64,000 bases of DNA from an uncultured virus (IMG/VR IMGVR_UViG_3300020046_005824) (lineage: Duplodnaviria; Heunggongvirae; Uroviricota; Caudoviricetes). This document shows positions 403-15,494 of this stretch, one piece after another. Within the stretch, counting starts at the first letter, position 1. Each line of letters opens with the position of its first letter. The notes below the pieces were generated by a model. It searched no databases. It was not told the DNA's origin and saw only the letters and a list, made by a program, of their open reading frames with translations. The DNA lies in the IMG/VR virus record IMGVR_UViG_3300020046_005824. The stretch is one strand, 5' to 3'. Both the position numbers and the translations under genes were made by a program.

Positions 403-615
403 CTAGTCGAGGAAAAGGAACGCGTCAAATATGCGGGCGGCGCGCCGCTCCGATATCAGGGAACGTCCGACGCCGCGGCCGGAACTAAATCGCGGTTTCG
501 GACGGGTGTAATAGGCAGCGGCTAGCTCAAAGCCGTCGTGTATGTATATTCCTTCTATAGAATGCCACACGCGCCCGCGTACGACGACGGGGTTTAGATC
601 GGAGGGGATAATCAT
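403..615 (-). CDS. Small hypothetical protein, C-terminal tag array 1 (degenerate end FLFLD)
   Basis: ATGA-coupled to upstream ORF; last member of the array. Confidence 0.65.
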   Translation of the reverse strand: MIIPSDLNPVVVRGRVWHSIEGIYIHDGFELAAAYYTRPKPRFSSGRGVGRSLISERRAARIFDAFLFLD

Positions 616-815
616 TCTAATATCAGTAAGTCAGACAAAACCGTACCGCGGTTAAACGTGCATGCTTTGCCGTACACGGGCCATATAAGTATGTGGCGCA
701 TTGGATATACGGCGTAGTCAACTCGATTAAGTCGTCGCGTACCGAACGGACTTCTTTGCGCTCGTACGCGGGCAGCGCGCACTACCCTCTGCAAGTTAAA
801 ATTCTCGGCGATCAT
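612..815 (-). CDS. Small hypothetical protein, C-terminal tag array 1 (ends VLSDLLILE)
   Basis: ATGA overlaps at both ends; shared C-terminal motif. Confidence 0.75.
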   Translation of the reverse strand: MIAENFNLQRVVRAARVRAQRSPFGTRRLNRVDYAVYPMRHILIWPVYGKACTFNRGTVLSDLLILE

Positions 816-1024
816 TCTAGGAGCAGTAGAAAAGCCAGCGTGTCAAATTTATCCGTCGGGTGGCCATCGGTAATGGGTGCGACACCCGTGTACGCATACA
901 GCTCTATATACCCTGCAGACCACATGGCCAGAGCACGGCTAGAGGCGCGAAAGTATACGGTGTAATCCGGCCCGAAGCGCATAGCGGGCTCGCACGAACG
1001 CCCGAGAAGAATTGGACTGTTCAT
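812..1024 (-). CDS. Small hypothetical protein, C-terminal tag array 1 (ends TLAFLLLLE)
   Basis: ATGA overlaps; shared C-terminal motif. Confidence 0.75.
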   Translation of the reverse strand: MNSPILLGRSCEPAMRFGPDYTVYFRASSRALAMWSAGYIELYAYTGVAPITDGHPTDKFDTLAFLLLLE

Positions 1025-1230
1025 TCCAATAGTAAAAGTTGGACGAGAACGTCGTACGCTTCGGCGTCTCTGCCTGAATCACAGTAAAAATATTCCTGTT
1101 GCTGTGCTTCTGGATGTTGCTGTGCTTCTGGATTTGTGCTCCAGTTACGCGAATAATCCCAGAAGATACCTATTGGACCTAGATCGCAAGGATACCTATC
1201 TATCTTCGTCGGGTGTTGTTCGGGTGTCAT
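1021..1230 (-). CDS. Small hypothetical protein, C-terminal tag array 1 (ends VLVQLLLLE)
   Basis: ATGA overlaps; shared motif; internal 18-bp duplication. Confidence 0.75.
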   Translation of the reverse strand: MTPEQHPTKIDRYPCDLGPIGIFWDYSRNWSTNPEAQQHPEAQQQEYFYCDSGRDAEAYDVLVQLLLLE

Positions 1231-1457
1231 TCTAATAAAAGAAGTTCAGTCAACGGGTTCTCATACCGCCGGTCTATCCATACAGCGACGCCGCGCGCAC
1301 TGATAGTACGCGCCACTTTCCCAACAGGTTCAATTCCGATACGATACACGCGAGCGCCGCGCCCAACGTACCGACCTGTATTGCCCTTCATGGCAATAGC
1401 AACGCCACTCAATACAACCGTAGGTGCGATCCTCAGATGCCGGCGCTGGTAGGTCAC
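1227..1457 (-). CDS. Small hypothetical protein, C-terminal tag array 1 (ends PLTELLLLE)
   Basis: GTG start overlapping upstream stop (GTGA); shared motif. Confidence 0.7.
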   Translation of the reverse strand: MTYQRRHLRIAPTVVLSGVAIAMKGNTGRYVGRGARVYRIGIEPVGKVARTISARGVAVWIDRRYENPLTELLLLE

Positions 1458-1996: not shown

Positions 1997-2542
1997 TCAC
2001 TCCGGTTGTATACGTTTCACCTGCGCGCAGATAGCGTCGGCCATCTCGTACGCGGTCTCTTCGATGTACTTGTCATCGCTGTCGTCGATACCCCACAGCG
2101 ACTCTTCGATGTTGTCGCTCTCGACGAGCTCACCGTCTTCCCCCACTTCCATCAGCGTTACGATGACGCCGATGTAGTGCCACTCGTCGTTCGCCCAGCT
2201 ACGTAAAAACTCGTAGTTACGCTGCACGGCAGCGTGCACGATCTGGCCGCGAGTCGGCGTGCGCCGCAGCTTTTTCGTCAGCTGCTCGGTCTCGTCTTCG
2301 GAAAGGCCCCAGCCGTCTCGCTTCGCGACGCGTGTCGACTCGGCCCAATCGTAGAACCGCTTGCTGCCACGATCTTGGCATAGCTCACGCTCTCCGGGCT
2401 TCTTGTCGCGGGTTGTCCATTCAGACACTTCGCCGTGACCACATTCCTCTTCCCATGGTGGGCCAGAGCTGTCGTCAAACTCGGTGCGGAAGCGAAACTT
2501 CAAGCCGCCGCGCTCGAAGATATCACCATCGTATAGGCTCAT
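1997..2542 (-). CDS. Conserved hypothetical phage protein (acidic)
   Basis: GGAGG RBS before MSLYDGD; long ORF. Confidence 0.75.
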   Translation of the reverse strand: MSLYDGDIFERGGLKFRFRTEFDDSSGPPWEEECGHGEVSEWTTRDKKPGERELCQDRGSKRFYDWAESTRVAKRDGWGLSEDETEQLTKKLRRTPTRGQIVHAAVQRNYEFLRSWANDEWHYIGVIVTLMEVGEDGELVESDNIEESLWGIDDSDDKYIEETAYEMADAICAQVKRIQPE

Positions 2543-2559
2543 ACTGCCCTCCAAATAGA

Positions 2560-2590
2560 GGGAGGTACATTACAGTGTAATGTACCTCCC
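2560..2590. promoter_or_regulatory. 21-bp palindromic operator-like site, copy 1 (within a perfect 15-bp-arm inverted repeat)
   Basis: GGGAGGTACATTACA-G-TGTAATGTACCTCCC, intergenic. Confidence 0.7.
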
Positions 2591-2595
2591 ATGAA

Positions 2596-3750
2596 TTACG
2601 CGCGAATGGTCCTGCCCCACGGCGCAACGACGTCTGTGGACATGACCCACAGGCTCGGGCAGCCGGGCTCCTTGCCCCAGTCGCCGATGTACCCGTCGGT
2701 GAAGGTCATCAAGAAGCTGGGCTTGATGCTGTGGTCGCGCAGGTACTTGAGCACCGGAGCGAACGACGTACCGCCGCCGCCCTTGGGCCGCGTCACCGTG
2801 AGCACGGTCTCGTCGGCGGTGTCGTAGACCTCGTGTGAGCGCACACCATCGTCCCAGTAGATGATGTGCAGCCGCTGCACCGAGAACGACCGCAGGATGT
2901 CACGCACGCCACCCAGCGCGGCCGCGAGCTCCTCGGGCGAGCCCCAGACCGAGCCGGACGTGTCCAGCGTGACCACAGGCTCCTCCAACGTCTCGCCGAC
3001 ACTGGACGGCAGGTACAGCCCTTGGTAGGCGAAGCGTCGGTTGGGGCGGCGCCACGTGGAGTTCTGGCCGGCCGCTGCGGCGGCGGAGACGAACTCCGCC
3101 AACAGGGTGTAGGTGTCATACGTCGGCTCTTTCAAGTCGTCGATGATCGCCTCCAGCGCGCCGGCGCCTGAGCCACTGATGCGCTGGCCCATGCGCATGG
3201 CCAGATCGACCGTGCGTTCGAGCTCCGCGCGTTCTTCCGGCGTCAGCTCGCGGTCGAACTCGTCGTGGTTGTCGATCGTGCCAGTTCCTTTCCCTCCACC
3301 GTTCTGCACGAGGTCGTCGAACACGCGCTGGACCGACCAGCCACGGTACTTGACATCGTGGCATGCGCCGGGTGGCAACGTGGCGACGCTGGTCGCTTGG
3401 TCGGACGCGACGATGGCGTCGTTCACCACAAAGTCCATCGCGATGTTGCACAGCTGCGGGTTGCGCTTGCGCAAGTGCTCCCACTGGGTAGTGTGGCGCA
3501 TCATGCGGTGCAGGCCCTCATGGGCCACAAGCCCTGCCAGCTGCTTGTTGTCGAGTCGCTCGACAAACGACGCCGCGTAGTACGTGTCCACCCCGTCGGT
3601 GTACGCCGTCTGCATCGGGCCGTTGAGCTTGTCGAGCACCTCGTTCTTGCCCATGATCAAAATGCCGCTCATCGCGGCGAACATGGGCGAGCCTTGGAGG
3701 CGAAGTATCGCCCCCTTGACTCGTCGTTGTTGCTTGTACACGTCAGTCAT
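2596..3750 (-). CDS. Metallopeptidase-like plus vWA domain protein (DUF2201-like), MoxR partner
   Basis: HExxH (AHEGLH); MIDAS DTSGS, GGGGTSF and FTDG motifs; adjacent to AAA+ gene. Confidence 0.85.
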   Translation of the reverse strand: MTDVYKQQRRVKGAILRLQGSPMFAAMSGILIMGKNEVLDKLNGPMQTAYTDGVDTYYAASFVERLDNKQLAGLVAHEGLHRMMRHTTQWEHLRKRNPQLCNIAMDFVVNDAIVASDQATSVATLPPGACHDVKYRGWSVQRVFDDLVQNGGGKGTGTIDNHDEFDRELTPEERAELERTVDLAMRMGQRISGSGAGALEAIIDDLKEPTYDTYTLLAEFVSAAAAAGQNSTWRRPNRRFAYQGLYLPSSVGETLEEPVVTLDTSGSVWGSPEELAAALGGVRDILRSFSVQRLHIIYWDDGVRSHEVYDTADETVLTVTRPKGGGGTSFAPVLKYLRDHSIKPSFLMTFTDGYIGDWGKEPGCPSLWVMSTDVVAPWGRTIRA

Positions 3751-3761
3751 GTCGTCCTCCT

Positions 3762-4838
3762 TCAGACGCCAGCGCTCAGGCGGGCAGAGTCCTTGAACAG
3801 GGTGGCCATGCTCTTGGTGCCCGTGACGGCGTTCACGTGGGCGCGGATGGCCAGCGTGGCGAACAGCGCGCCATGCTCCTCGGGCATGCGGGTGATGTAC
3901 TGCCCGAGCGCCTCCAGCTGCGGGGCCTTGAGGCTGCCGATGCGCGTCGCCGCAGTGACTGCGAACACCAGCCCGGCGATCGCATCCTCGGGCAGCTTGG
4001 CCTTGAGCGGGTTGGCCAGCACCTGCTCCATGGGGGTGAGGCGGTCAGCGACCGTGATCAACGACGCCATGTCCGCCGCAGCCTGCCGCCCGATGGTGCC
4101 AGCCAGCGCTGCGGAGAACGCCTCGTGGTCGCCGATGCTGGCGCGCTGCTTGACGATGTGGCCGGCCTTGTGCAGGGAGCGCGGGGTGACAAACGCCGTG
4201 TCCTTGCTGTCGGGCTTGTTGATGTACGGGTTGGACTTGGAAGTCTTGGGGTCGTAGTCTTCCAGCGTCGCGCCGATCTGCGTCACAAACGCGATGACCT
4301 CGGGCGCAACGTCGTTGGCGATCGCCCACTGCGTCCACTCGCTCGGCGTGGGCTTGCGCACAATGATCTCGGTCATCCGGTTGTAGCCGTGCTTGGGCAT
4401 GCGGTCGCCGACACCTTCACCCGCGAGGTTGCCGGTGCCGAACACCAGCGAGCCAGTGGGCAGCTTGTGCTCACCCAGCCGGCCTTCTTGCATCAGCGGG
4501 AGCAGCGCATTCATCACCGCCGGGGATGCCTTGGTCAGCTCGTCGAGCATGATCATCAGCGGCGCACCGTGCTGGAGGCCGAAGCGCGTGCTCGGGGCGA
4601 ACTGCGTCACCTTCACACCGTTGTGCTCGCCCATGAACGGCAGGAACAAGTCCTGCAGATCGGCCAGCGTGCAGTCCACGTACACCGGGATGTGGTTGGC
4701 GAACTCGGGGCGCTCCGCGAGCATGCTCAGGATCGACGACTTGCCGATGCCCATCTCACCACGCAGCATGTACGTGTTGGTCTGGCCGGTCAGGGCGATC
4801 AGGTTGGCGGCTTGGTTCAGGCTGAGTTTGGAGTCCAT
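3762..4838 (-). CDS. MoxR-like AAA+ ATPase
   Basis: Walker A GEMGIGKS, Walker B IMLDE, NALLPLMQEG; paired with vWA gene. Confidence 0.85.
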   Translation of the reverse strand: MDSKLSLNQAANLIALTGQTNTYMLRGEMGIGKSSILSMLAERPEFANHIPVYVDCTLADLQDLFLPFMGEHNGVKVTQFAPSTRFGLQHGAPLMIMLDELTKASPAVMNALLPLMQEGRLGEHKLPTGSLVFGTGNLAGEGVGDRMPKHGYNRMTEIIVRKPTPSEWTQWAIANDVAPEVIAFVTQIGATLEDYDPKTSKSNPYINKPDSKDTAFVTPRSLHKAGHIVKQRASIGDHEAFSAALAGTIGRQAAADMASLITVADRLTPMEQVLANPLKAKLPEDAIAGLVFAVTAATRIGSLKAPQLEALGQYITRMPEEHGALFATLAIRAHVNAVTGTKSMATLFKDSARLSAGV

Positions 4839-5083
4839 TACATTTCCTTCATTGCGTCGGGTTGTGAAACATCAGTGAGCCCTCGACGAGCAGGCTCATA
4901 GATGGATTGGATACCCTGCAGAATAGCCATCTGCTCGGGTGTGAAGTCACTGAAAACGAAGTCGCGCACGATGCAACGACCCAAGGGGGTTGACTTCCTA
5001 AGTTCAAAGGTCGGCAACGCGAAAAGAACCGCCGCGCATTCATCTTCAGTGAAATCGACGATCGTCCATTTATTGATTTTCAT
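4838..5083 (-). CDS. Small paralog family C member (EDECAAVLFALP...TPEQMAIL..IY)
   Basis: TAATG overlap with AAA+ start; similar to the next three ORFs. Confidence 0.7.
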   Translation of the reverse strand: MKINKWTIVDFTEDECAAVLFALPTFELRKSTPLGRCIVRDFVFSDFTPEQMAILQGIQSIYEPARRGLTDVSQPDAMKEM

Positions 5084-5273
5084 TGTATAGCCTCGCTACT
5101 GCGCACAAGATTTCTCTTTGTTCTTTGGTTAGCATCTGATAGGTCGGTAGCGTTAACCTATACCTGTAATTCATCTGCGTGGTCACATATACCAGCATAG
5201 GAACAGCCATCTGTATCGCCGCGGCTTCTTCGTCCGTGCTCACGTACACGGAGTACGCTCCGACTTCTATCAT
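5070..5273 (-). CDS. Small paralog family C member (MIEV...TDEEAAAIQMAVP...TKEQREIL..LY)
   Basis: ATGA coupling; paralogy. Confidence 0.75.
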   Translation of the reverse strand: MIEVGAYSVYVSTDEEAAAIQMAVPMLVYVTTQMNYRYRLTLPTYQMLTKEQREILCAVARLYNENQ

Positions 5274-5479
5274 TTGTAAATATCCTGCACACCGCACGCG
5301 ATGAGTATCTGCTGCGGGGTGAAATGCCACACGCCTGCTGGTGGGCGAAACAGATAAGTAAACCATGCCTTGCTTGCGCCCTTCAGGCGTTCCCGCTTCA
5401 AGCCGGGTATTGCCAGCTCCAGAGCCGCGGCTTCTTCGTCCGTGTCGCAGTATATGCAAATGTCGCTTACGGTTATCAT
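5270..5479 (-). CDS. Small paralog family C member (MITV...TDEEAAALELAIP...TPQQILI..IY)
   Basis: ATGA coupling; paralogy. Confidence 0.75.
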   Translation of the reverse strand: MITVSDICIYCDTDEEAAALELAIPGLKRERLKGASKAWFTYLFRPPAGVWHFTPQQILIACGVQDIYK

Positions 5480-5667
5480 TTGTACAACTCCGCTACCGCG
5501 CGGGCTCGCGCTTGTAACTCCGGGGGAATCCCGGTGCTCCCGGGCATCACGAATATGATGCCGGGCAAGTGTGGTAAGTATTCTTCAAGCTCTGGACACG
5601 CCATCCGTATCGCTTGCTTTTCTTCTTCAGAATCGCAAGCGACGCTGACATTGCTGACCTCAATCAT
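5476..5667 (-). CDS. Small paralog family C member (MIEV...SEEEKQAIRMACP...LY)
   Basis: ATGA coupling at 5664-5667; paralogy. Confidence 0.75.
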   Translation of the reverse strand: MIEVSNVSVACDSEEEKQAIRMACPELEEYLPHLPGIIFVMPGSTGIPPELQARARAVAELYK

Positions 5668-5843
5668 CCCGCCGACAGCTTGCGCTTGAGCGCCCGCAGC
5701 TCCGCAATGTAGGTGGGCTGTCGCACCTGCTGGCCGTGCGCCCGGGCAAGTGCCAGAGAGACGAGCAGACGCAGCGTAGCCCACTGCTCGGGTGTCAGTT
5801 CGCCGAATTCATCTGTGTCGGGTTCAATAAGTTCGATGTTCAT
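5664..5843 (-). CDS. 59-aa hypothetical protein (MNIELIEPD...LTPEQWATLRLL)
   Basis: Translated by hand; ATGA overlaps at both ends. Confidence 0.7.
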   Translation of the reverse strand: MNIELIEPDTDEFGELTPEQWATLRLLVSLALARAHGQQVRQPTYIAELRALKRKLSAG

Positions 5844-6091
5844 TTGAACTCCTTAAAGGTATAGCCGTACATGGAAAGAATTTTGCACGCCAGATCACGG
5901 CGTTCGACCGACCCAAAATAATAGGTAACCCAGCGCCTGTCTACGTCTATGTGCCTCGGTACGTCTATGTGCCTCGGGCTGGCACCTGCCATCTCGAGCG
6001 CGGCGAGATGTTCATCGGACAGAGGGATTGTGTCCCCCGTCTGCGTACAGATAGCTTCATCATACGATTTGAAAATTTCAAGCTTTCTCAT
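5840..6091 (-). CDS. Small paralog family D member (LSDEHLAALEMAG...ILSMYGY)
   Basis: Paralogy with the next three ORFs. Confidence 0.75.
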   Translation of the reverse strand: MRKLEIFKSYDEAICTQTGDTIPLSDEHLAALEMAGASPRHIDVPRHIDVDRRWVTYYFGSVERRDLACKILSMYGYTFKEFK

Positions 6092-6329
6092 TTTCTTCTA
6101 CCTTGAAATCGTACATGGAACAAAGAATGTTGATGGCTAGCCACATCTGATTCTGGTCGTGGAACACCCAGTAGCGTCCTATGTTGTGGCTCGACGGTAG
6201 CAGCTGGGTAATGGTGCACGCGCACCCGGCCATCTGCAGAGCGGCGGTCTGCTCATTGCTGAGGTTGGCGCAGTCCGGCGACCGAGTGAAGAACGCATCG
6301 ATAGATGGCATCGGGCAGAGAATCCTCAT
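6078..6329 (-). CDS. Small paralog family D member (LSNEQTAALQMAG...ILCSMYDF)
   Basis: Paralogy. Confidence 0.75.
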   Translation of the reverse strand: MRILCPMPSIDAFFTRSPDCANLSNEQTAALQMAGCACTITQLLPSSHNIGRYWVFHDQNQMWLAINILCSMYDFKVEENEKA

Positions 6330-6333
6330 ACTG

Positions 6334-6573
6334 TCACCTGATATCTTCTATGGTGTATCCGTACACAGACACGAGAATGTGCGCGGCGGTAGCAGCGGAC
6401 TCTCCATTCTTGAACCGAAAGGCGAGCCAATTGCCGGCGCTGTTGTTATGTAGATGTGTGCGCACAACAGGTACGCCGGCCATTTCGAGCGCCGTTAGCT
6501 GTTCATCTGGCAGTAGCGCGGTGTCGCCGGCCACGGTGAAAAGCGCTTTCGTGGCTAGTTCAAGTGTTCTCAT
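6334..6573 (-). CDS. Small paralog family D member (LPDEQLTALEMAG...ILVSVYGY)
   Basis: Paralogy; ATGA coupling. Confidence 0.75.
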   Translation of the reverse strand: MRTLELATKALFTVAGDTALLPDEQLTALEMAGVPVVRTHLHNNSAGNWLAFRFKNGESAATAAHILVSVYGYTIEDIR

Positions 6574-6791
6574 ATTTTACTGATTCGATACCCGTACAGG
6601 TCGCGGAGCAGCATGGCAACGGCGGGCGCGTCATCCACGGTGTACGTCCAATACGGAAATGAATTCGCCGGTGGCGACGAACGTGCTGAGTATCCCGCCA
6701 ACTCTAAAGCGGCCAAATGCACGGGGTCTAACTGCGCGGTGTCTCCATTCGTGGTGAAAATGGTGTACGTAGCGTACTCAATCGTTCTCAC
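6570..6791 (-). CDS. Small paralog family D member (LDPVHLAALELAG...LLRDLYGY)
   Basis: GTG start overlapping upstream stop; paralogy. Confidence 0.7.
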   Translation of the reverse strand: MRTIEYATYTIFTTNGDTAQLDPVHLAALELAGYSARSSPPANSFPYWTYTVDDAPAVAMLLRDLYGYRISKI

Positions 6792-7060
6792 TTCTTCCCC
6801 GCCTTGGCGTACACGTGGAAAGCCTTCGGGTCGAGGCCGCGATGCGTGGACTTGTCGGACTTGTCGGACAGCCCATACATGGTCCCCGTGTTGCGCCCCG
6901 TGTCGCTCTCCATGCGCTCGCGGGACGCTGTAGCAGCCGCGCCGGCGTTCGCCCGGAAGTACGGGTCGCGGGCGAACACGGTGGGCTCGCCGGTGTCCCA
7001 GTTGAAGCCCGTGTGCGTGGACTTGATGATGTTCGTACCGGGCCAGTAGATGACTTTCAT
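6788..7060 (-). CDS. Hypothetical phage protein (MKVIYWPGTNIIKS...)
   Basis: GC-rich codon usage; coupled on both sides; separates families D and B. Confidence 0.75.
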   Translation of the reverse strand: MKVIYWPGTNIIKSTHTGFNWDTGEPTVFARDPYFRANAGAAATASRERMESDTGRNTGTMYGLSDKSDKSTHRGLDPKAFHVYAKAGKK

Positions 7061-7278
7061 TTATATTCCTCAGGGTTAAAAATAGCGGATATCTGTTCAT
7101 GAGTGAGCCGTACTAGCCCGTCTAGTGCTCGCTCACCTACCATGCTAAAAACCGTCCACCCTAGCTCTGTGCAAGTAGACCTACTTAAATAAATATAGTC
7201 GTGCCCCAATGTACGCAGCGTGCTACGGCAAGCATTACACAGGCGGGGGACAATGAGCTCGTCTATTCGGTACATCAT
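7057..7278 (-). CDS. Small paralog family B member (MYRIDEL...TELGWTVFSMVG)
   Basis: Paralogy; ATGA coupling. Confidence 0.75.
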   Translation of the reverse strand: MMYRIDELIVPRLCNACRSTLRTLGHDYIYLSRSTCTELGWTVFSMVGERALDGLVRLTHEQISAIFNPEEYK

Positions 7279-7490
7279 TTTCTCCCGAGCAGGGCTCTCA
7301 GCTGCCCCACGGTGGGGTAGTAATACTCGTCGAAGTCATTCGACACGCCCATCATGTTGAACGCTGCTACGCACAGCGGTGTGAGTTGTGAGTCGTGTAG
7401 AGTTATACGCGCCGATGGACGTCGGCCTCTCAGGACGCGGAGCATCTTTGCTCGTTCACCCTCGACGAACAACTCTCGCTTCTTATACAC
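7275..7490 (-). CDS. Small paralog family B member (MYKKREL...TPLCVAAFNMMG)
   Basis: Paralogy. Confidence 0.7.
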   Translation of the reverse strand: MYKKRELFVEGERAKMLRVLRGRRPSARITLHDSQLTPLCVAAFNMMGVSNDFDEYYYPTVGQLRALLGRK

Positions 7491-7704
7491 GGTAACTCTC
7501 CGGGTTGAACAGGGCAGCGAATGCTTTTCCGTCTACCCTATTATCGTCAGTGATTCCGATCATCTGCAGGGCGGCCAGACCGAGGGGAGTAAAATCTTCG
7601 GGGTTTACTTGTACAGACCAATCGCACGTCTGTGCGAACTGTCGTAGCCATCGAAGCACATTATTTTCACGGTCCCGATCGAGCATTTCTTCAACTGTGA
7701 ACAT
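7483..7704 (-). CDS. Small paralog family B member (MFTVEEM...TPLGLAALQMIG)
   Basis: Paralogy. Confidence 0.75.
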   Translation of the reverse strand: MFTVEEMLDRDRENNVLRWLRQFAQTCDWSVQVNPEDFTPLGLAALQMIGITDDNRVDGKAFAALFNPESYRV

Positions 7705-7707
7705 GAT

Positions 7708-7728
7708 GTACGTTACACTGTAATATAC
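7708..7728. promoter_or_regulatory. 21-bp palindromic site, copy 2
   Basis: GTACGTTACACTGTAATATAC fills the intergenic gap. Confidence 0.7.
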
Positions 7729-7940
7729 TAATCGAAGAGGGCGGCCAAGGTTTCAGCGGAAATACGCTCGTCGACACGGCCGGCCATGTCTAGGACAGCG
7801 ATGCCTAACTCAGTAAGCGCGTAGTCTGGCATGGAGACTTCTTTAATTTGTGTGCGGAAATATCTTTTTTTCCACTCGCGCATACTGCCAGCCCACTTGC
7901 CGCACAATTCCTCCGCCGTGTACGGGGCTTGCTGTTTCAT
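7728..7940 (-). CDS. Small paralog family B member (YTAEEL...TELGIAVLDMAG)
   Basis: Paralogy. Confidence 0.75.
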   Translation of the reverse strand: MKQQAPYTAEELCGKWAGSMREWKKRYFRTQIKEVSMPDYALTELGIAVLDMAGRVDERISAETLAALFD

Positions 7941-8191
7941 ACCAGTTCTTCCGGTTCTGCGGCGAGAAGTTGGAGCTCGAGCTCGATGGATATCTTAATC
8001 CTACGCCCAGACGTGTCGACGCCCGCCATACCGAATACTGCCAGCCCGAGTGGGGTGAATATTTCCCGGCCGGCGTTGGTAATGCCTAACGATTTGACGC
8101 CCGTACGCACAGCTTTACGTTTCAGAGCCAACCACTCCCGTACGCCTGGCACATATTCTGGCACGTAGAGGTCTTCAACTTTGTACATCAC
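7937..8191 (-). CDS. Small paralog family B member (MYKVEDL...TPLGLAVFGMAG)
   Basis: Paralogy; ATGA coupling. Confidence 0.75.
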   Translation of the reverse strand: MMYKVEDLYVPEYVPGVREWLALKRKAVRTGVKSLGITNAGREIFTPLGLAVFGMAGVDTSGRRIKISIELELQLLAAEPEELV

Positions 8192-8436
8192 GGCTCCGCC
8201 GAAAGAAGCGATACTTGCACATGTGAGGGGAGTCTGATAGTAGGGCGACTGCTTATGCCTTCTACGGTTCCTCCCGCCATCGTGAAAACAGCCACGCCGA
8301 GCGGCGTGATGTTATTCACATAATCCGCCGTAGAGTCGCCGACGTCTGGGGGATGCGCCCTACGGACGCGAAGCCACCCACGGACATTCCTGCGAGCATC
8401 ATCCCGATCATTGAAAATTTCATCTACGGTGTACAC
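8188..8436 (-). CDS. Small paralog family B member (MYTVDEI...TPLGVAVFTMAG)
   Basis: Paralogy. Confidence 0.75.
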   Translation of the reverse strand: MYTVDEIFNDRDDARRNVRGWLRVRRAHPPDVGDSTADYVNNITPLGVAVFTMAGGTVEGISSRPTIRLPSHVQVSLLSAEP

Positions 8437-8669
8437 GGTTGATCCATCCCGTAGAGCGCCAATTCTGTTTTCATGGGTAGCTCGTACTCGTTATTCTCTT
8501 CGTCGTATTGTGCGCCGACCATTGAATACACGGCTTCGCCCAGCTCCGTTAGCGTATCTTTCGAAACTTGAACTATGGTATCCGGGCTAGTATGTTTCCT
8601 AGCGTCTTCGAACCATATCTTCACAGTTTTATGGTACCGGGGGAGAAACAGCTCTTCTATCGTGTACAT
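8424..8669 (-). CDS. Small paralog family B member (MYTIEEL...TELGEAVYSMVG)
   Basis: Paralogy. Confidence 0.75.
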   Translation of the reverse strand: MYTIEELFLPRYHKTVKIWFEDARKHTSPDTIVQVSKDTLTELGEAVYSMVGAQYDEENNEYELPMKTELALYGMDQPCTP

Positions 8670-8980
8670 ACGTGCCGTCCTTTACCGTCGACGCGTGGGA
8701 TGACGCCGCCTGATGGGCCAACGAAATACTGGCACCCTGTCAACTCGTCCGTGGACACCTTGAGCCCTGAGCGGGGGGAGAACCACTCCTGCTGGTCGGA
8801 GTTGTCGCGCCCCAGTGGGGAGGCGGACACGAGGTACAACGCCGCGGCGATGACGGCGCACAGCCGGCCTAGCCGGTTGGCGGCGATGCCCGCAGCGGCG
8901 AGGGCAGCGGCCATGATGGCCGACGCAGCCTCTTGCATGGTGGCGTCAGCCAGCTTGACGGGCTCGGGAGTGGGTTTCAT
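8657..8980 (-). CDS. Hypothetical membrane-anchored protein (RSGLKVSTDELTGCQYF...PRVD)
   Basis: AGGAG RBS; hydrophobic segment. Confidence 0.7.
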   Translation of the reverse strand: MKPTPEPVKLADATMQEAASAIMAAALAAAGIAANRLGRLCAVIAAALYLVSASPLGRDNSDQQEWFSPRSGLKVSTDELTGCQYFVGPSGGVIPRVDGKGRHVCTR

Positions 8981-10823: not shown

Positions 10824-10852
10824 ATTATACCACAGGTAGAGTAATTTGTCAA
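10824..10852 (-). promoter_or_regulatory. Consensus sigma70 promoter
   Basis: TTGACA-17 bp-TATAAT, perfect match on the minus strand. Confidence 0.85.
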
Positions 10853-11341: not shown

Positions 11342-11545
11342 TTATTCAATCAGTAGAAGTGAAAAAAGAACTGGTTCGACTGGGCGTTGTTTATGGTGGA
11401 TGTTGTGCCATTCAAACTTGAGCGCTAGCCCTCTAATACGCTGGCCCCTATATGTTGCGACAGCGTACGCAGAGCGAGAGTACACTAGGTGAGTACGCTT
11501 GGCCAAGCGAATGTATATCTTATCTGTGAACGCGGAGAATATCAT
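11342..11545 (-). CDS. Small hypothetical protein, C-terminal tag array 2 (ends VLFSLLLIE)
   Basis: Shared C-terminal motif; TAA stop. Confidence 0.7.
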   Translation of the reverse strand: MIFSAFTDKIYIRLAKRTHLVYSRSAYAVATYRGQRIRGLALKFEWHNIHHKQRPVEPVLFSLLLIE

Positions 11546-11548
11546 GTG

Positions 11549-11752
11549 TTACTCGATCAGCAAGAGCGAGACAAGGAGTGATGGCGGGTAGGGGCGTCCG
11601 GAAGTAAACGCGGCGTCGAGCAAAAGGTCCGGGCTCCTGTGCTGCAGGGACGTAGTCACACGCGAGCCCGAGCGCACGTTGTACATGGTGTTGTACCACC
11701 ACTCCAAATGAGCTACTCGGTGCGGGGCGCGGCGAGAGACGGATGCAATCAT
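11549..11752 (-). CDS. Small hypothetical protein, C-terminal tag array 2 (ends LLVSLLLIE)
   Basis: Shared motif; GAG-TAA end. Confidence 0.7.
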   Translation of the reverse strand: MIASVSRRAPHRVAHLEWWYNTMYNVRSGSRVTTSLQHRSPDLLLDAAFTSGRPYPPSLLVSLLLIE

Positions 11753-11907
11753 TCGATCAGCAGCAGTTGGGTGAGTACATTCTCGCGCAGCGTCATACCA
11801 TACATTTTACCGCCTACTCGGACTGCGCTGAAGTAGCCCCGTAGTACAGCAGAATACATCGAGAGAGCGCAAGCTGGGGAATAGCGATAACCGTTAAGTA
11901 GAGTCAT
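11749..11907 (-). CDS. 52-aa hypothetical protein, C-terminal tag array 2 (MTLLNGY...NVLTQLLLIE)
   Basis: Translated by hand; ATGA overlaps at both ends. Confidence 0.7.
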   Translation of the reverse strand: MTLLNGYRYSPACALSMYSAVLRGYFSAVRVGGKMYGMTLRENVLTQLLLIE

Positions 11908-12092
11908 TCAATCAGCAGAAGTTGGGTGAGTATATCTTCGATCGTCCAACTGTACGTGTAGCCTGTAGCGGCGTCTACTTGTACGTTACCCCATGGAATT
12001 GCGTGTGCGCGGTACATAGTCATAATATTGAGTACCCGCGGTCCGTCACCGCACCAACATTGAAACACGGTAGAGGGCGCGATAAACATCAT
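11904..12092 (-). CDS. Small hypothetical protein, C-terminal tag array 2 (ends ILTQLLLIE)
   Basis: ATGA overlaps; shared motif. Confidence 0.7.
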   Translation of the reverse strand: MMFIAPSTVFQCWCGDGPRVLNIMTMYRAHAIPWGNVQVDAATGYTYSWTIEDILTQLLLIE

Positions 12093-13699
12093 TCAAGCCC
12101 GAGCATGTAAGGCTGCTGCATGTGCACCGACGGGGGGGTGCCGGGCAGCGTGGGCAGGCCGGCATACACGGGCTTCATCCAAGCGTGCGAGGACCCCACG
12201 AGCTTGGCCCGAGCGACGGTGAACGGTATCTCGATGCGGGCATACAGCACACCGTCAAACACGTCGAGGACCATCTCGGGTGGGTGCTTCTCCCAGAGGG
12301 CCAACAGAGAGTTTGCGTCGCTGGCAGCGTCGGGTCGCCGATGCTGGTCTGTGTGGGCGGCGCGGACCGGCCGACCCGGGCGCACGGGCTGGCACAGGGC
12401 CGCCCAAAGAAAATACTCGGGGTGGATGATATTAACTGCGCCAGAGGGCAGCGGCAAGGGTGCAGGTTGTGCATACACCGGCAGTGAGGCGCTGTGCGCG
12501 AACGGGATCACGGGAGTGAATGTGGTGTGGCCAGCTGTCCACGAGCCCGGTACGTCGTACTTGTGCAAGTAGGGCAGGCGGCTCTCCATGGGTACAGTGT
12601 CGGGGCGGGTGGCACGGGCCGCGGCACGCACGGTGCGCCACATCTGGTCCACACCCTCGCGCCGACGGTTCACCTTCTGGACATCGGTGGGTACGCCGGT
12701 GGCGGCGCCCCCACCCCCACCCTTCTGCGGGCGAGGAACTGGTGCGGCACGAGAGATGCGCGTGTCGGACGGGGTCGTGCGCGGCTGGGCTGCAGCAGGG
12801 GGCAGCAGGGCCGACATCTGGGTCATCGCCTCAAACATGAGCATGGGGGTCGCCGGCCCGAAGTAGGGGAGATAGAACGTGTGCGGCGTCGGCTGGTTGA
12901 GGGCGGATGTGGGGGTGTAGTGCACCCAGCGGGAATGTATGGCCGGGGTGGATGTGCGCAGGCTGTCGAACGGCGTGAGCAGCACGTCGCAGACGGGCCG
13001 GTGCGGGTCGAGCTCGTCCGTGGTCGGAGGCAGGCGGGAGCCGATCAGGGCGCACTGCTGCAGCGTCGAGTGCACGAGAGGCAGCCGCACAGGGGTGGGC
13101 GACGCTGCAACGGTGGAAGTCTGATGGTACGAGCCCCACGGAAACAGGTTGAGCTTCAGGTGGGTGAGCTTGAGAGCGGCGAACGGCTCACCGGTGGGCA
13201 GCGGCACACTGACCTTGACCCGGCCGTGAGGCATGCGCGAGCCGAGCGAGAGCCCCGGGAACTCCACAGGGTAGGCGAGTGGGGTGGGGGTGGCGGGTGA
13301 GGCAGCGAGCGAGAGGGGGATCGGGACATTGATCGGCAGGGCCGCGAGGGCGGCATGCTCAGGGGAGTCGACGGGGAACGTAGGCAGCGCGCAGTTGAGC
13401 CCGAGACGGTAGAAGCCGGGCTGGTCGAGCGAGGGGTCGAGCTCGGGGGAGTCGGCTGGGTTGATGTAGGCCGGGGGGGTAGGCGCAGAAGGGATACGCG
13501 CTGTATGTTCTGCTGGCAGCATCGATTCGCCGATGCTGCTGACGGCATCGGTGGAAGGGGGTGTGGGTTCGATGGGGGTCGATTCGGCGAGGCTGATGCC
13601 GGCTTCGGCAGTGTATTCAGGCGTGCAGGCTTCGGCAGTGTATTCAGGCGTGCAGGCTTCGGCACGGGGGATTTCGGCGGGGGTTTCAGTGTGATTCAT
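12089..13699 (-). CDS. Pro/Thr/Ala-rich 536-aa hypothetical protein
   Basis: Long ORF coupled to array 2; 27-bp tandem repeat near N-terminus; ends MLGLE. Confidence 0.65.
   Translation of the reverse strand: MNHTETPAEIPRAEACTPEYTAEACTPEYTAEAGISLAESTPIEPTPPSTDAVSSIGESMLPAEHTARIPSAPTPPAYINPADSPELDPSLDQPGFYRLGLNCALPTFPVDSPEHAALAALPINVPIPLSLAASPATPTPLAYPVEFPGLSLGSRMPHGRVKVSVPLPTGEPFAALKLTHLKLNLFPWGSYHQTSTVAASPTPVRLPLVHSTLQQCALIGSRLPPTTDELDPHRPVCDVLLTPFDSLRTSTPAIHSRWVHYTPTSALNQPTPHTFYLPYFGPATPMLMFEAMTQMSALLPPAAAQPRTTPSDTRISRAAPVPRPQKGGGGGAATGVPTDVQKVNRRREGVDQMWRTVRAAARATRPDTVPMESRLPYLHKYDVPGSWTAGHTTFTPVIPFAHSASLPVYAQPAPLPLPSGAVNIIHPEYFLWAALCQPVRPGRPVRAAHTDQHRRPDAASDANSLLALWEKHPPEMVLDVFDGVLYARIEIPFTVARAKLVGSSHAWMKPVYAGLPTLPGTPPSVHMQQPYMLGLE
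13601..13664. repeat. 27-bp tandem repeat x2.4 (AEACTPEYT)
   Basis: GGCTTCGGCAGTGTATTCAGGCGTGCA repeated exactly. Confidence 0.9.
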
Positions 13700-13736: not shown

Positions 13737-13757
13737 GTATATTACAGCGTAACATAC
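13737..13757. promoter_or_regulatory. 21-bp palindromic site, copy 5, overlapping a possible minus-strand promoter (TTGCGC-17-TAATAT)
   Basis: GTATATTACAGCGTAACATAC. Confidence 0.65.
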
Positions 13758-13805
13758 CGGGGCGCAAGGGGAATGTTTGGATTTGTTAGGTTCGTGGGGG
13801 TTCGG

Positions 13806-13933
13806 CATGTGGGATAATTAGGGGTGGGGAAAGGGAACATGTGGGATTATTTGGGGGAAAATGGGGGTGGAGGGGAGGGGGACATGTGGGATAATTAGGG
13901 TAAAAAGGGGTCGCTATAATTCATAATTAGGGG
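13806..13933. repeat. Direct repeats CATGTGGGATAATTAGGG (3 copies, one degenerate, plus a partial) in a G-run tract
   Basis: Copies start at 13806, 13838 and 13883. Confidence 0.75.
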
Positions 13934-14334
13934 TAAAAAAGTTGAGTTAGAAATTTAACACAGAAAAAACGAGTTCGTAGGATGGCGTGTCGGCGATTAA
14001 ATAACGTGCACTAGGGTGAGGAAACTCAGAAAAAAACTCGTGGATATGTCGATGTAATTATCTCATATAGAGGGGGTAATTACCTCATATAAGGGTGTGT
14101 TATCGTCGTATACGGTGTGTGAAAATAAGTCGTGTTTTTCTCATTTTCGTAGACCGTATACGGCTATAGTGATATTCACTGCAGGTAGCCGGAAAAAGAA
14201 TAGCGAGTAGTTTTTTTCGCCCCCGTACGAAAACCCTATAACCTAGTCAACAATAGGGGTATTCGATTTTAGTTCCCGAATAAAGGGAGCGATATGGCGG
14301 GAATTAGCTATGGACCCACGCCCCCTACGATTTT

Positions 14335-14455
14335 ACAGTTTCCTTCGTTTTCTATATATTATTTATTTATCTATTCTTATCCTTATTATATGTAATAAAT
14401 AAATAAATATAAATAAAATAAAGAAAATAAAGAAGAAAAAAATAAATCATATAGT
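14335..14455. other. Very AT-rich tract with (TAAA)n-like runs
   Basis: Almost only A/T in a GC-rich genome. Confidence 0.85.
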
Positions 14456-14613
14456 TGGGAAACTAGCTCATATAATCCCTCGCGCTGGCGCGCGTTTCGG
14501 CGTGCCGGACCCCGCGAGTGGGCTCCACGTATGCGGGAGTTGCCCATTACGCCCAGTAATGTATGACGCCATAAAATACTATCCCCCACCGTTGGAGTAT
14601 GATATTCCTGCTA

Positions 14614-14634
14614 GTATGTTACAGTGTAATATAC
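14614..14634. promoter_or_regulatory. 21-bp palindromic site, copy 6
   Basis: GTATGTTACAGTGTAATATAC. Confidence 0.7.
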
Positions 14635-14764
14635 CCGGCGTGCTCGCTACTCAGTAGGGAACTGGCATGAAAGCGCCTACCCGGTGCAGGGGTGGCGCGG
14701 TCCGGTGCTCTTAACCCAGTTGGGAACTGGCACGAAAGTGCCATACACAGAAACTGCGGGCAAA

Positions 14765-14798
14765 GAAAAAGCCCCCAGACCGTATGGTCTGGGGGCTT
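14765..14798 (-). terminator. Rho-independent terminator
   Basis: AAGCCCCCAGACC/GGTCTGGGGGCTT stem followed by a U-tract on the minus strand. Confidence 0.75.
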
Positions 14799-14804
14799 GA
14801 TGGG

Positions 14805-15092
14805 TCAGAGATCGACTACTGTCAATCGATATCGAATGCCTGCGGCTTCAACAATGAAAGTATCGGCGCCAGCATCAAGCAGGGCGCTCAACGCGCAAGA
14901 ATCGACGGCTTCAAACGCGCCGACAATCACCTCGCGAGTTTCCGGATGCACAATCTCCTCACAGAACCGCGCGGGATAGTCGGTGTGCGGTATCACGCTA
15001 CGCGCGTCAATCGCGCCTATCAGCGCGCGCGCTGCGTCAATGCGTGCTATCAACATAGCGCGGCATTCTGTATCTGATTTGTTTTTTGCCAT
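14805..15092 (-). CDS. Hypothetical protein (MAKNKSD...)
   Basis: GGAG RBS within a duplicated leader. Confidence 0.7.
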   Translation of the reverse strand: MAKNKSDTECRAMLIARIDAARALIGAIDARSVIPHTDYPARFCEEIVHPETREVIVGAFEAVDSCALSALLDAGADTFIVEAAGIRYRLTVVDL

Positions 15093-15132
15093 GAGTTACT
15101 CCAAAGGTTAAAAACCCCCCGCAGTGCGGGGG
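15078..15132 (-). repeat. 55-bp unit copy A: terminator hairpin + RBS + codons MAKNK
   Basis: 53/55 identical to 15440-15494. Confidence 0.9.
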
Positions 15133-15139
15133 CTTGAGG

Positions 15140-15454
15140 TCAGCGCGGGAACAGCTCACATACGCCGCATGGGCTGTCGCCTGCATAGCGTACGAAAGTG
15201 TATGTGTAGTGCCCGACGTCGTTATACGATGCGTAGGCATGAGCAAACACATAGGCTTGCGCAGTAGCACGCGAAATATTGTGTATCGCGGCGATTAAGT
15301 ATCGCGTTTCAATATCGCGGGAAGTGAATGGGCATCCCGTGCGCGATGCCTCCAAATCTGTCACTGTGGCGATGGTGACGTATTCAACACGCAATTCAGT
15401 GCGGATGCGTCGGCCTACTTTCACCATCGGCGCAGCGAGTTTGTTTTTTGCCAT
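15140..15454 (-). CDS. Hypothetical protein (MAKNKLA...)
   Basis: GGAG RBS within a duplicated leader. Confidence 0.7.
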   Translation of the reverse strand: MAKNKLAAPMVKVGRRIRTELRVEYVTIATVTDLEASRTGCPFTSRDIETRYLIAAIHNISRATAQAYVFAHAYASYNDVGHYTYTFVRYAGDSPCGVCELFPR

Positions 15455-15494
15455 GATTTACTCCAAAGGTTAAAAACCCCCCGCACTGCGGGGG
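15440..15494 (-). repeat. 55-bp unit copy B: terminator hairpin + RBS + codons MAKNK
   Basis: 53/55 identical to 15078-15132. Confidence 0.9.

What the first reader, a model, noticed from the sequence alone, without database searches (positions are those of the whole stretch)
2596..8669. Candidate system: MoxR AAA+/vWA-metallopeptidase pair coupled to about 16 diversified small proteins sharing an 'AAlxMAG' helix
Seen: a near-continuous minus-strand run from 8669 leads into the ATPase (TAATG overlap at 4836-4840) and then the HExxH+vWA gene. Three different paralog families in this run carry a similar helix: DEEAAAIQMAVP (C), DEHLAALEMAG (D) and TPLGLAALQMIG (B). Established: MoxR ATPases work with vWA proteins as remodelling chaperones, and phage AAA/DUF2201 pairs are known but poorly understood. 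Inference: the small proteins may be an expandable set of substrate adaptors or clients docking through the shared helix, giving a modular host-takeover or anti-defence machine. Adjacency alone does not prove a functional link.
Basis: partly seen in the sequence, partly recalled or inferred. Interest (0 to 1): 0.85.

Follow-up and report, generated by a model that had tools for sequence, protein, structure and literature searches.

The report
Mini-gene accordions beside phage MoxR-vWA pair
One wastewater phage carries fifteen fast-changing small genes in three tandem families next to a common ATPase plus protease/vWA gene pair; they likely encode interchangeable host-target binders, and whether they plug into that ATPase machine is untested.

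Summary
Between 8669 and 4838 lie 17 coupled small ORFs: families B (7), D (4), C (4) and two singletons. An intact AAA+ ATPase and an HExxH/vWA (DUF2201) gene follow. The shared helix beats chance: it is in 14 of 15 paralogs against 15 of 2340 decoy ORFs, and B-D and D-C profiles outscore all 96 decoy families, while B-C does not. B and D are predicted to have different folds (D ACT/ferredoxin-like, B unmatched). Strains gain, lose and recombine copies, and D varies most in one beta-hairpin. The functional link is unproven. None of 80 related AAA loci carries B, C or D, and the same genome has a fourth array with another tag. In favour of a link, the arrays fill the slot of a gene that precedes the ATPase in 65 of 72 relatives, and this genome lacks that gene and the usual DUF3150 partner. 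Best reading: diversifying host-interaction genes co-transcribed with the pair (0.5). Exchangeable adaptors of the pair: 0.3. The scan noted other, unrelated arrays beside this pair on other DNA (unchecked).

The parts
8424..8669 (-). B1, family B paralog (81 aa)
8188..8436 (-). B2 (82 aa); an extra B2-like copy stands upstream in contigs of two runs
7937..8188 (-). B3 (83 aa); AlphaFold2 model pLDDT 92, order alpha-alpha-beta-alpha(motif)-beta-alpha, no fold match
7728..7940 (-). B4 (70 aa)
7708..7728 (.). 21-bp palindrome, one of 7 copies in the early region (operator-like)
   Evidence: chance expectation 0.02
7483..7704 (-). B5 (73 aa)
7275..7490 (-). B6 (71 aa)
7057..7278 (-). B7 (73 aa)
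6788..7060 (-). X, unrelated singleton (90 aa, GC3 0.90 like core genes)
6570..6791 (-). D1 (73 aa, GTG start); replaced or skipped in contigs of two runs
6334..6573 (-). D2 (79 aa); model pLDDT 95, ACT/ferredoxin-like; hairpin 38-53 hypervariable between strains
6078..6329 (-). D3 (83 aa)
5840..6091 (-). D4 (83 aa)
5664..5843 (-). Y, singleton (59 aa) with a TPEQ helix like the second helix of C; weak likeness to vWA residues 163-191
5476..5667 (-). C1 (63 aa)
5270..5479 (-). C2 (69 aa); best window hit of the D profile outside D (E 0.037 among 10,796 ORFs)
5070..5273 (-). C3 (67 aa); four allele combinations across the motif helix
4838..5083 (-). C4 (81 aa), lacks the M-x-G/P motif; TAATG-coupled to the ATPase
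3762..4838 (-). MoxR-clade AAA+ ATPase (PHROG 1297, Pfam AAA_5); Walker A, Walker B, N137, R154 and R220 conserved
2596..3750 (-). Metallopeptidase-vWA protein (DUF2201_N + DUF2201, PHROG 1314); H77-E78-H81 and MIDAS D263/S265/S267/T328/D352 intact
10824..10852 (-). perfect sigma-70 consensus (12 of 12), candidate promoter of the whole leftward early run

Best explanation
These are three tandem arrays of small phage genes that gain, lose and recombine copies between strains and likely encode variable binders of host proteins (anti-defence or takeover), probably co-transcribed with, but likely working apart from, a standard phage AAA+/peptidase-vWA pair. Shown: the arrays, their coupling to the ATPase, copy-number change, allele mosaics, and a conserved helix beside hypervariable segments. 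Predicted: D is a stable ACT/ferredoxin-like domain whose helix 1 is the motif and whose beta-hairpin 38-53 varies, and B is a different compact fold. Inferred: C and D descend from one gene. B shares only a 14-residue segment, most likely inherited or spread by recombination and kept because it packs the core. Inferred mechanism: duplication at short shared DNA makes new copies, the variable surface changes target specificity, and host defence selects among them, as shown for T4 tifA amplification and the T-even internal proteins. The ATPase/vWA pair is inferred to remodel or cleave its own, unknown substrate through its MIDAS site.
For: Homologues are narrow: 12 D hits among 102 candidates and 16 C hits among 46 candidates. 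B gave 15 hits among 1.84 billion representatives, 13 of them B-like 70-87 aa proteins; two long proteins were set aside as spurious. The pair occurs without the arrays: 0 of 80 AAA loci have B, C or D (73 also hold the vWA gene, 55 have at least 4 kb upstream), and 0 of 5 whole related genomes have B or D (C not searched, no positive control). The N4-like RiverRider pair has neither the arrays nor the usual partner genes nearby. Duplication here is not tied to the pair: nine family-A genes with a different C-terminal tag lie at 403-1457 and 11342-12092, and an E pair at 14805-15454. Relative L082 has four small genes sharing a C-terminal tag 6.7 kb downstream of its ATPase. Dynamics in 4 runs: a back-joint 8376->8172 (extra B copy; X1, X4), 12052->11751 (extra A copy; X4, X9), D1 replaced (X1), and 358 nt of array A skipped (X4). 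The motif changes at 7 of 126 allele positions against 288 of 1369 overall. C3 alleles show all four combinations of the N-terminal and middle blocks. The motif is small and hydrophobic with no acidic residue common to B, C and D, whereas MIDAS sites bind a carboxylate (PMC4660213, passages).
Against: No host target or anti-defence activity is shown, and no family match exists. The arrays sit exactly where 65 of 72 relatives with enough flank carry a conserved gene of about 290 aa (F0). This genome lacks F0 and the DUF3150-like gene (57 of 59 relatives), although its ATPase nests inside that clade; that looks like replacement. C4 is TAATG-coupled to the ATPase. A motif with a conserved Met shared by two different folds is easier to explain by a common partner than by packing. 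C has an invariant Glu (E16) that could serve a MIDAS site. Contig joints at 80% likeness can come from related organisms.
Confidence: 0.5

Rival explanations
1. The small proteins are exchangeable third components of the AAA+/vWA machine: the shared helix docks on the pair and the variable surface picks a host substrate for remodelling or cleavage, replacing the lost F0 and DUF3150 partners.
For: The arrays fill the F0 slot, and both F0 and the DUF3150-like gene are missing from this 64-kb genome (best E 0.33 and none at E<=5; PF11348 0 of 1). Even the sister loci L074 and L082 keep F0 directly upstream. Translational coupling runs into the ATPase. The motif is conserved beside hypervariable parts. 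HExxH and MIDAS are intact, while 30 of 96 otherwise near-invariant vWA positions differ (that consensus comes from the relatives themselves). MoxR-vWA ternary systems with variable third parts are described in bacteria (PMC7159879, section 8 and passages).
Against: 0 of 80 AAA loci share the families, and none has a BLAST-detectable array of three or more small paralogs (13 of 80 have pairs, a test that also splits the window's own arrays). B-C similarity is background. B has no conserved acidic residue. In known systems the vWA protein is itself the adaptor (PMC4660213). An N4-like pair has no such partners nearby. B, C and D show no similarity to F0 or DUF3150.
Confidence: 0.3
2. The shared helix is a handle for some other common partner (a host protein or a phage loading factor), in the way the T4 capsid-targeting sequence tags diverse internal proteins.
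For: One short conserved segment occurs in two folds. Family A in the same genome is a pure tag-plus-variable-body design (its tag is in 0 of 3478 small ORFs of the 80 relatives). Precedent: PMC3012670, passages.
Against: The motif is internal and hydrophobic rather than terminal, and in D it is helix 1 of a ferredoxin-like fold, which normally packs on the sheet (established knowledge of the fold). No partner has been identified.
Confidence: 0.14
3. The arrays are by-products of a recombination-prone early region, with little selected function.
For: GC3 is low and drifting (0.47-0.71 against 0.87-0.91 in the pair), and copies come and go.
Against: All 15 frames are open and coupled, the models fold confidently (pLDDT 92-95), and strain changes spare the motif helix and cluster in surface segments.
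Confidence: 0.06

Closest known systems
Phage AAA+ ATPase plus metallopeptidase-vWA pair (PHROG 1297 + 1314; Pfam DUF2201_N/DUF2201; e.g. RiverRider genes 30-31; the label 'N4 gp24/gp25' is recalled and appears in earlier scan notes)
   Same: Same two families, order and catalytic motifs. 450 of 50,697 phage records match the ATPase, and about 1200 IMG/VR stretches are estimated to match.
   Different: In its own clade the pair is flanked by F0 and a DUF3150-like gene. Here both are undetectable and 15 small paralogs stand upstream.
MoxR-vWA chaperone pairs CbbQ/CbbO and bacterial MoxR-vWA ternary conflict systems (PMC4660213; PMC7159879)
   Same: MoxR-clade ATPase with a MIDAS-bearing vWA partner; the ternary systems have a variable third part.
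   Different: Here the vWA is fused to an intact HExxH domain and the genes are viral. The candidate third parts are 60-85 aa orphans, not VMAP, iSTAND, FtsH or beta-propeller proteins.
T4 tifA segmental amplification and T-even internal proteins (PMC9391042; PMC3012670)
   Same: Small accessory genes amplified in tandem by recombination at short homology; a diverse set with one conserved tag.
   Different: No sequence or fold relation was found. Here the copies are diverged (24-41% identity), the shared segment is internal, and no target is known.
ACT / ferredoxin-like domains (Atu0741 1zhv, aspartate kinase 3l76, CASTOR1 9kp4)
   Same: D2 model: Z 7.4, rmsd 2.4, 70 aligned; Z 6.8 and 6.3 for the next two; ESM Atlas TM 0.70 to ACT clusters.
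   Different: Z under 8 may be a common arrangement only; identity is 9-13%; there is no Pfam ACT hit; no ligand site is shown.

Membership tests
MoxR-clade AAA+ ATPase | Walker A and B, sensor I, arginine finger, sensor II | tested here: met
   G27/G30/G32/K33/S34, D99/E100, N137, R154 and R220 invariant in 51 sequences; the role names come from established knowledge
MoxR-clade AAA+ ATPase | helix-2 insert | tested here: inconclusive
   a conserved segment lies between Walker A and B and Pfam AAA_5 is over its cut-off (24 against 22 bits), but AAA_3 and bpMoxR are under theirs; no structure was predicted
MoxR-clade AAA+ ATPase | adjacent vWA partner with intact MIDAS | tested here: met
   DUF2201 E 3e-17; D263, S265, S267, T328 and D352 invariant in 47 sequences
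DUF2201 metallopeptidase-vWA | N-terminal HExxH domain plus C-terminal vWA | tested here: met
   DUF2201_N E 2e-22; H77, E78 and H81 invariant
Four-gene cassette of this phage clade (F0-AAA-vWA-DUF3150) | F0 gene directly upstream and DUF3150-like gene downstream | tested here: not met
   no hit in six frames of the 64,118-nt genome. Caveats: no terminal repeat, and gene 1997-2542 has a weak profile match to DUF3150-like (E 0.029, 124 columns, one of 9 genes tried)
MoxR-vWA ternary system | conserved third component co-occurring with the pair across genomes | tested here: not met
   B, C and D in 0 of 80 AAA loci
MoxR-vWA ternary system | physical binding of the third component to the pair | not tested
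ACT domain (family D) | ferredoxin-like fold | tested here: inconclusive
   Z 7.4 to 1zhv, under the level the tool calls clear; Foldseek best E 0.016
ACT domain (family D) | sequence profile or amino-acid binding | tested here: inconclusive
   no Pfam ACT hit at E<=0.1; ligand binding cannot be tested with these tools
One B/C/D superfamily | homology over the domain length | tested here: inconclusive
   D-C 43 columns, above all 96 decoys; B-D 14 columns only; B-C background; no model of C

The most novel reading that the evidence does not exclude
This phage lineage has replaced the two fixed partner genes of the widespread AAA+/peptidase-vWA cassette with a recombining library of at least 15 mini-adaptors in two folds, one without a known match. 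They dock through one shared helix and steer an ATP-driven remodelling and cutting machine to changing host targets: a programmable phage protease.
Probability: 0.25. Interest if true: 0.85.

Novelty: new variant of a known kind. Interest (0 to 1): 0.55.

Why it matters
The AAA+/DUF2201 pair is in hundreds of sequenced phages, and I found no paper that tests its function (searches; subscription papers are largely missing from that library). A lineage that lacks both usual partner genes and carries small, soluble, well-folded candidates in their place offers a cheap binding test. Even without a link, B, C and D are three unnamed families caught in ongoing copy-number change and recombination. 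That makes them good candidates for anti-defence screens, and B may be an undescribed small fold.

Tried and rejected
Complex prediction of ATPase + vWA + D was not available, so there is no verdict on binding. Pfam and PHROG gave no convincing family for any of the 17 small ORFs; NCBIfam and PADLOC gave none for the 5 tried. The B model had no match with E<=0.001 in the PDB or BFVD, and its best Z was 4.0; this does not prove a new fold. The D model was not searched against BFVD, and C has no model; the ESM Atlas gave nothing for C3. Searches for close relatives with DNA context failed: ATPase and D in viral contigs, D and vWA in metagenome contigs, and the B alignment was too variable to search. 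The nearest non-self ATPase is 49% identical, and the best capsid relatives are 60-67% from a truncated scan. The six IMG/VR loci holding the palindrome share no protein with the genes tested. B, C, D and A as fragments of F0, DUF3150, the ATPase or the vWA protein: rejected, best E 0.035. Y as a mimic of the vWA linker helix: score 49, reached by 3 of 2340 decoys and 3 of 5000 shuffles, but found post hoc among about 35 genes and not seen with the vWA profile; kept only as a curiosity. No RNA holder was listed. A second read layout was not obtained, so the strain dynamics rest on 4 runs. Literature searches for such arrays found nothing specific.
Full report
Setting. The window is almost all of a 64,118-nt virus record (CheckV completeness 100, no terminal repeat). 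It is a tailed phage with terminase, portal, major head protein, DNA polymerase, primase and helicase genes. Its capsid protein is 59% identical to that of phage MinM2 and 52-53% to Pelagibacter phages HTVC023P/027P. The stretch 2500-8700 is held by 20 listed runs from 9 studies, mostly wastewater; I laid four of them. The host is unknown.

Observation. It is confirmed, with small corrections. There are seven B, four D and four C paralogs plus two singletons, nearly all overlapping their neighbours, then the ATPase and the HExxH/vWA gene. The paralogs have GC3 0.47-0.71 against 0.87-0.91 for the pair. A perfect sigma-70 consensus at 10852-10824 could drive the whole run; co-transcription is inferred, not shown.

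The pair is ordinary. The ATPase matches PHROG 1297 (E 1e-49) and the partner matches PHROG 1314 and DUF2201_N/DUF2201. Catalytic and MIDAS residues are invariant in alignments of 51 and 47 sequences. 450 of 50,697 GenBank phage records match the ATPase. In studied MoxR-vWA pairs the vWA domain captures a substrate peptide, usually through an acidic side chain, and the ATPase remodels it (PMC7159879, section 8 and passages; PMC4660213, passages). For viral pairs the function is called unclear (PMC7911831, passages). I read no supplements.

The shared helix is real but not uniform. The pattern is in 14 of 15 paralogs and 15 of 2340 decoy ORFs (the pattern was chosen after the fact). Profile comparison against 96 natural small-gene families puts B-D (14 columns) and D-C (43 columns) above every decoy, and B-C at background. 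AlphaFold2 gives confident but different models. D2 (pLDDT 94.7) reads beta-beta-alpha-beta-beta-alpha-beta and resembles ACT domains (best Z 7.4, rmsd 2.4, 70 aligned). B3 (pLDDT 92.3) is mainly helical and has no match. So C and D probably share an ancestor, while B shares only the helix. Model coordinates were not returned, so burial is unknown. The motif has no acidic residue common to all three families. C has an invariant E16, but Glu is also usual in the first turn of a helix (own knowledge).

The arrays are evolving fast. Strain alleles are 67-98% identical to the window's copies, with changes in blocks. In D2 the hairpin 38-53 is replaced again and again. C3 shows all four combinations of two N-terminal and two middle blocks, which points to crossovers at or near the motif. 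Motif positions change at 7 of 126 sites against 288 of 1369 overall (18 alleles of 7 genes). Contigs show an extra B copy (joint 8376 back to 8172 in runs X1 and X4; by eye the letters between encode the start of P0134), an extra A copy (X4, X9), replacement of D1 (X1) and a 358-nt skip in array A (X4) (laid at 80% likeness, so related phages may contribute). Six further B types, 33-53% identical to their nearest window copy (P0138, P0141-P0144, P0146), appear to come from the same contigs as D and C alleles, judged only from equal contig lengths.

Link to the pair, against. B, C and D profiles find nothing in 80 IMG/VR loci with the ATPase (best non-window E 0.012 among 10,796 ORFs; 73 loci hold the vWA gene, 55 have at least 4 kb upstream). 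B and D find nothing in 5 whole related genomes. None of the 80 has a BLAST-detectable small-gene array of three or more. The window duplicates other genes too: nine family-A genes share only a C-terminal LxxLLLxE-type tag, and there is the E pair. The N4-like RiverRider pair has no such partners within 4 kb.

Link to the pair, for. In this clade the pair normally sits in a four-gene cassette. An unnamed gene of about 290 aa (F0) lies directly upstream in 65 of 72 loci with enough flank, and a DUF3150-like gene lies downstream in 57 of 59 (the profiles were built from 25 of these sequences each). The window genome has neither. A FastTree of 37 ATPases nests the window inside the clade, next to L074 and L082 (support 0.94; no clade test run; 29 of the 80 loci used), and both of these keep a diverged F0 directly upstream. 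So F0 was probably lost here, and the C, D and B arrays stand in its slot. Caveats: the contig ends are not closed, very diverged copies could be missed, and gene 1997-2542 has a weak match to DUF3150-like (E 0.029). Earlier scan notes report other, unrelated arrays beside the same pair. They are unchecked and were retrieved by those very words, so I use them as a lead only; one of them prompted the DUF3150 test.

Mechanism and verdict. I commit to diversifying host-interaction genes that expand by recombination, on the model of T4 tifA amplification and the tagged T-even internal proteins (PMC9391042 and PMC3012670, passages), co-expressed with the pair but acting apart from it (0.5). Exchangeable adaptors replacing the lost partners is a serious rival (0.3). 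A handle for another partner gets 0.14, and no function 0.06. Class: new variant of a known kind; interest 0.55.

Noticed in passing
window 2565, 7708, 10096, 10735, 13737, 14614, 16277: Seven copies of a 21-bp palindrome, all intergenic in the early region and several shortly upstream of minus-strand starts; chance expectation 0.02. Likely an operator or phage promoter element. Six IMG/VR stretches hold an exact match but share no tested gene.
   Followed up: partly
window 403-1457 and 11342-12092: Family A: nine coupled 52-76 aa genes sharing only a C-terminal hydrophobic tag ending in Glu/Asp; the tag is in 0 of 3478 small ORFs of 80 relatives; copy gain and loss in strains. A terminal acidic residue makes them candidate MIDAS ligands (untested).
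   Followed up: partly
L007:8950-9891 and the same place in most of L007-L086: F0: a gene of about 290 aa with no Pfam or PHROG match (3 tested) directly upstream of the ATPase in 65 of 72 loci; an unnamed core part of the AAA/vWA/DUF3150 cassette.
   Followed up: partly
window 14805-15494: Two genes with the same first five residues, each behind a 55-nt duplicated hairpin plus ribosome-binding cassette (96% identical).
   Followed up: no
window 5664-5843: Singleton Y resembles residues 163-191 of this phage's own vWA protein (score reached by 3 of 2340 decoys) and shares 37 nt at 76% with C4; weak.
   Followed up: partly
window 12089-13699: 536-aa Pro/Ala/Thr-rich orphan with no family match, directly upstream of array A and ending in a similar hydrophobic-Glu terminus.
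   Followed up: no
window 1997-2542: PHROG 11104 gene right after the vWA gene, in the DUF3150 position, with a weak profile match to the DUF3150-like family (E 0.029, 124 columns).
   Followed up: partly
window 13750-14800: ORF-poor region with strong GC skew and short purine-rich repeats; possibly an origin or packaging site.
   Followed up: no
window 17087-19783: Terminase large subunit is 898 aa with matches in two separated parts, suggesting an insertion such as an intein.
   Followed up: no
L082:16684-17976: Four neighbouring small genes share a C-terminal tag, showing module shuffling among small genes elsewhere in this clade.
   Followed up: partly
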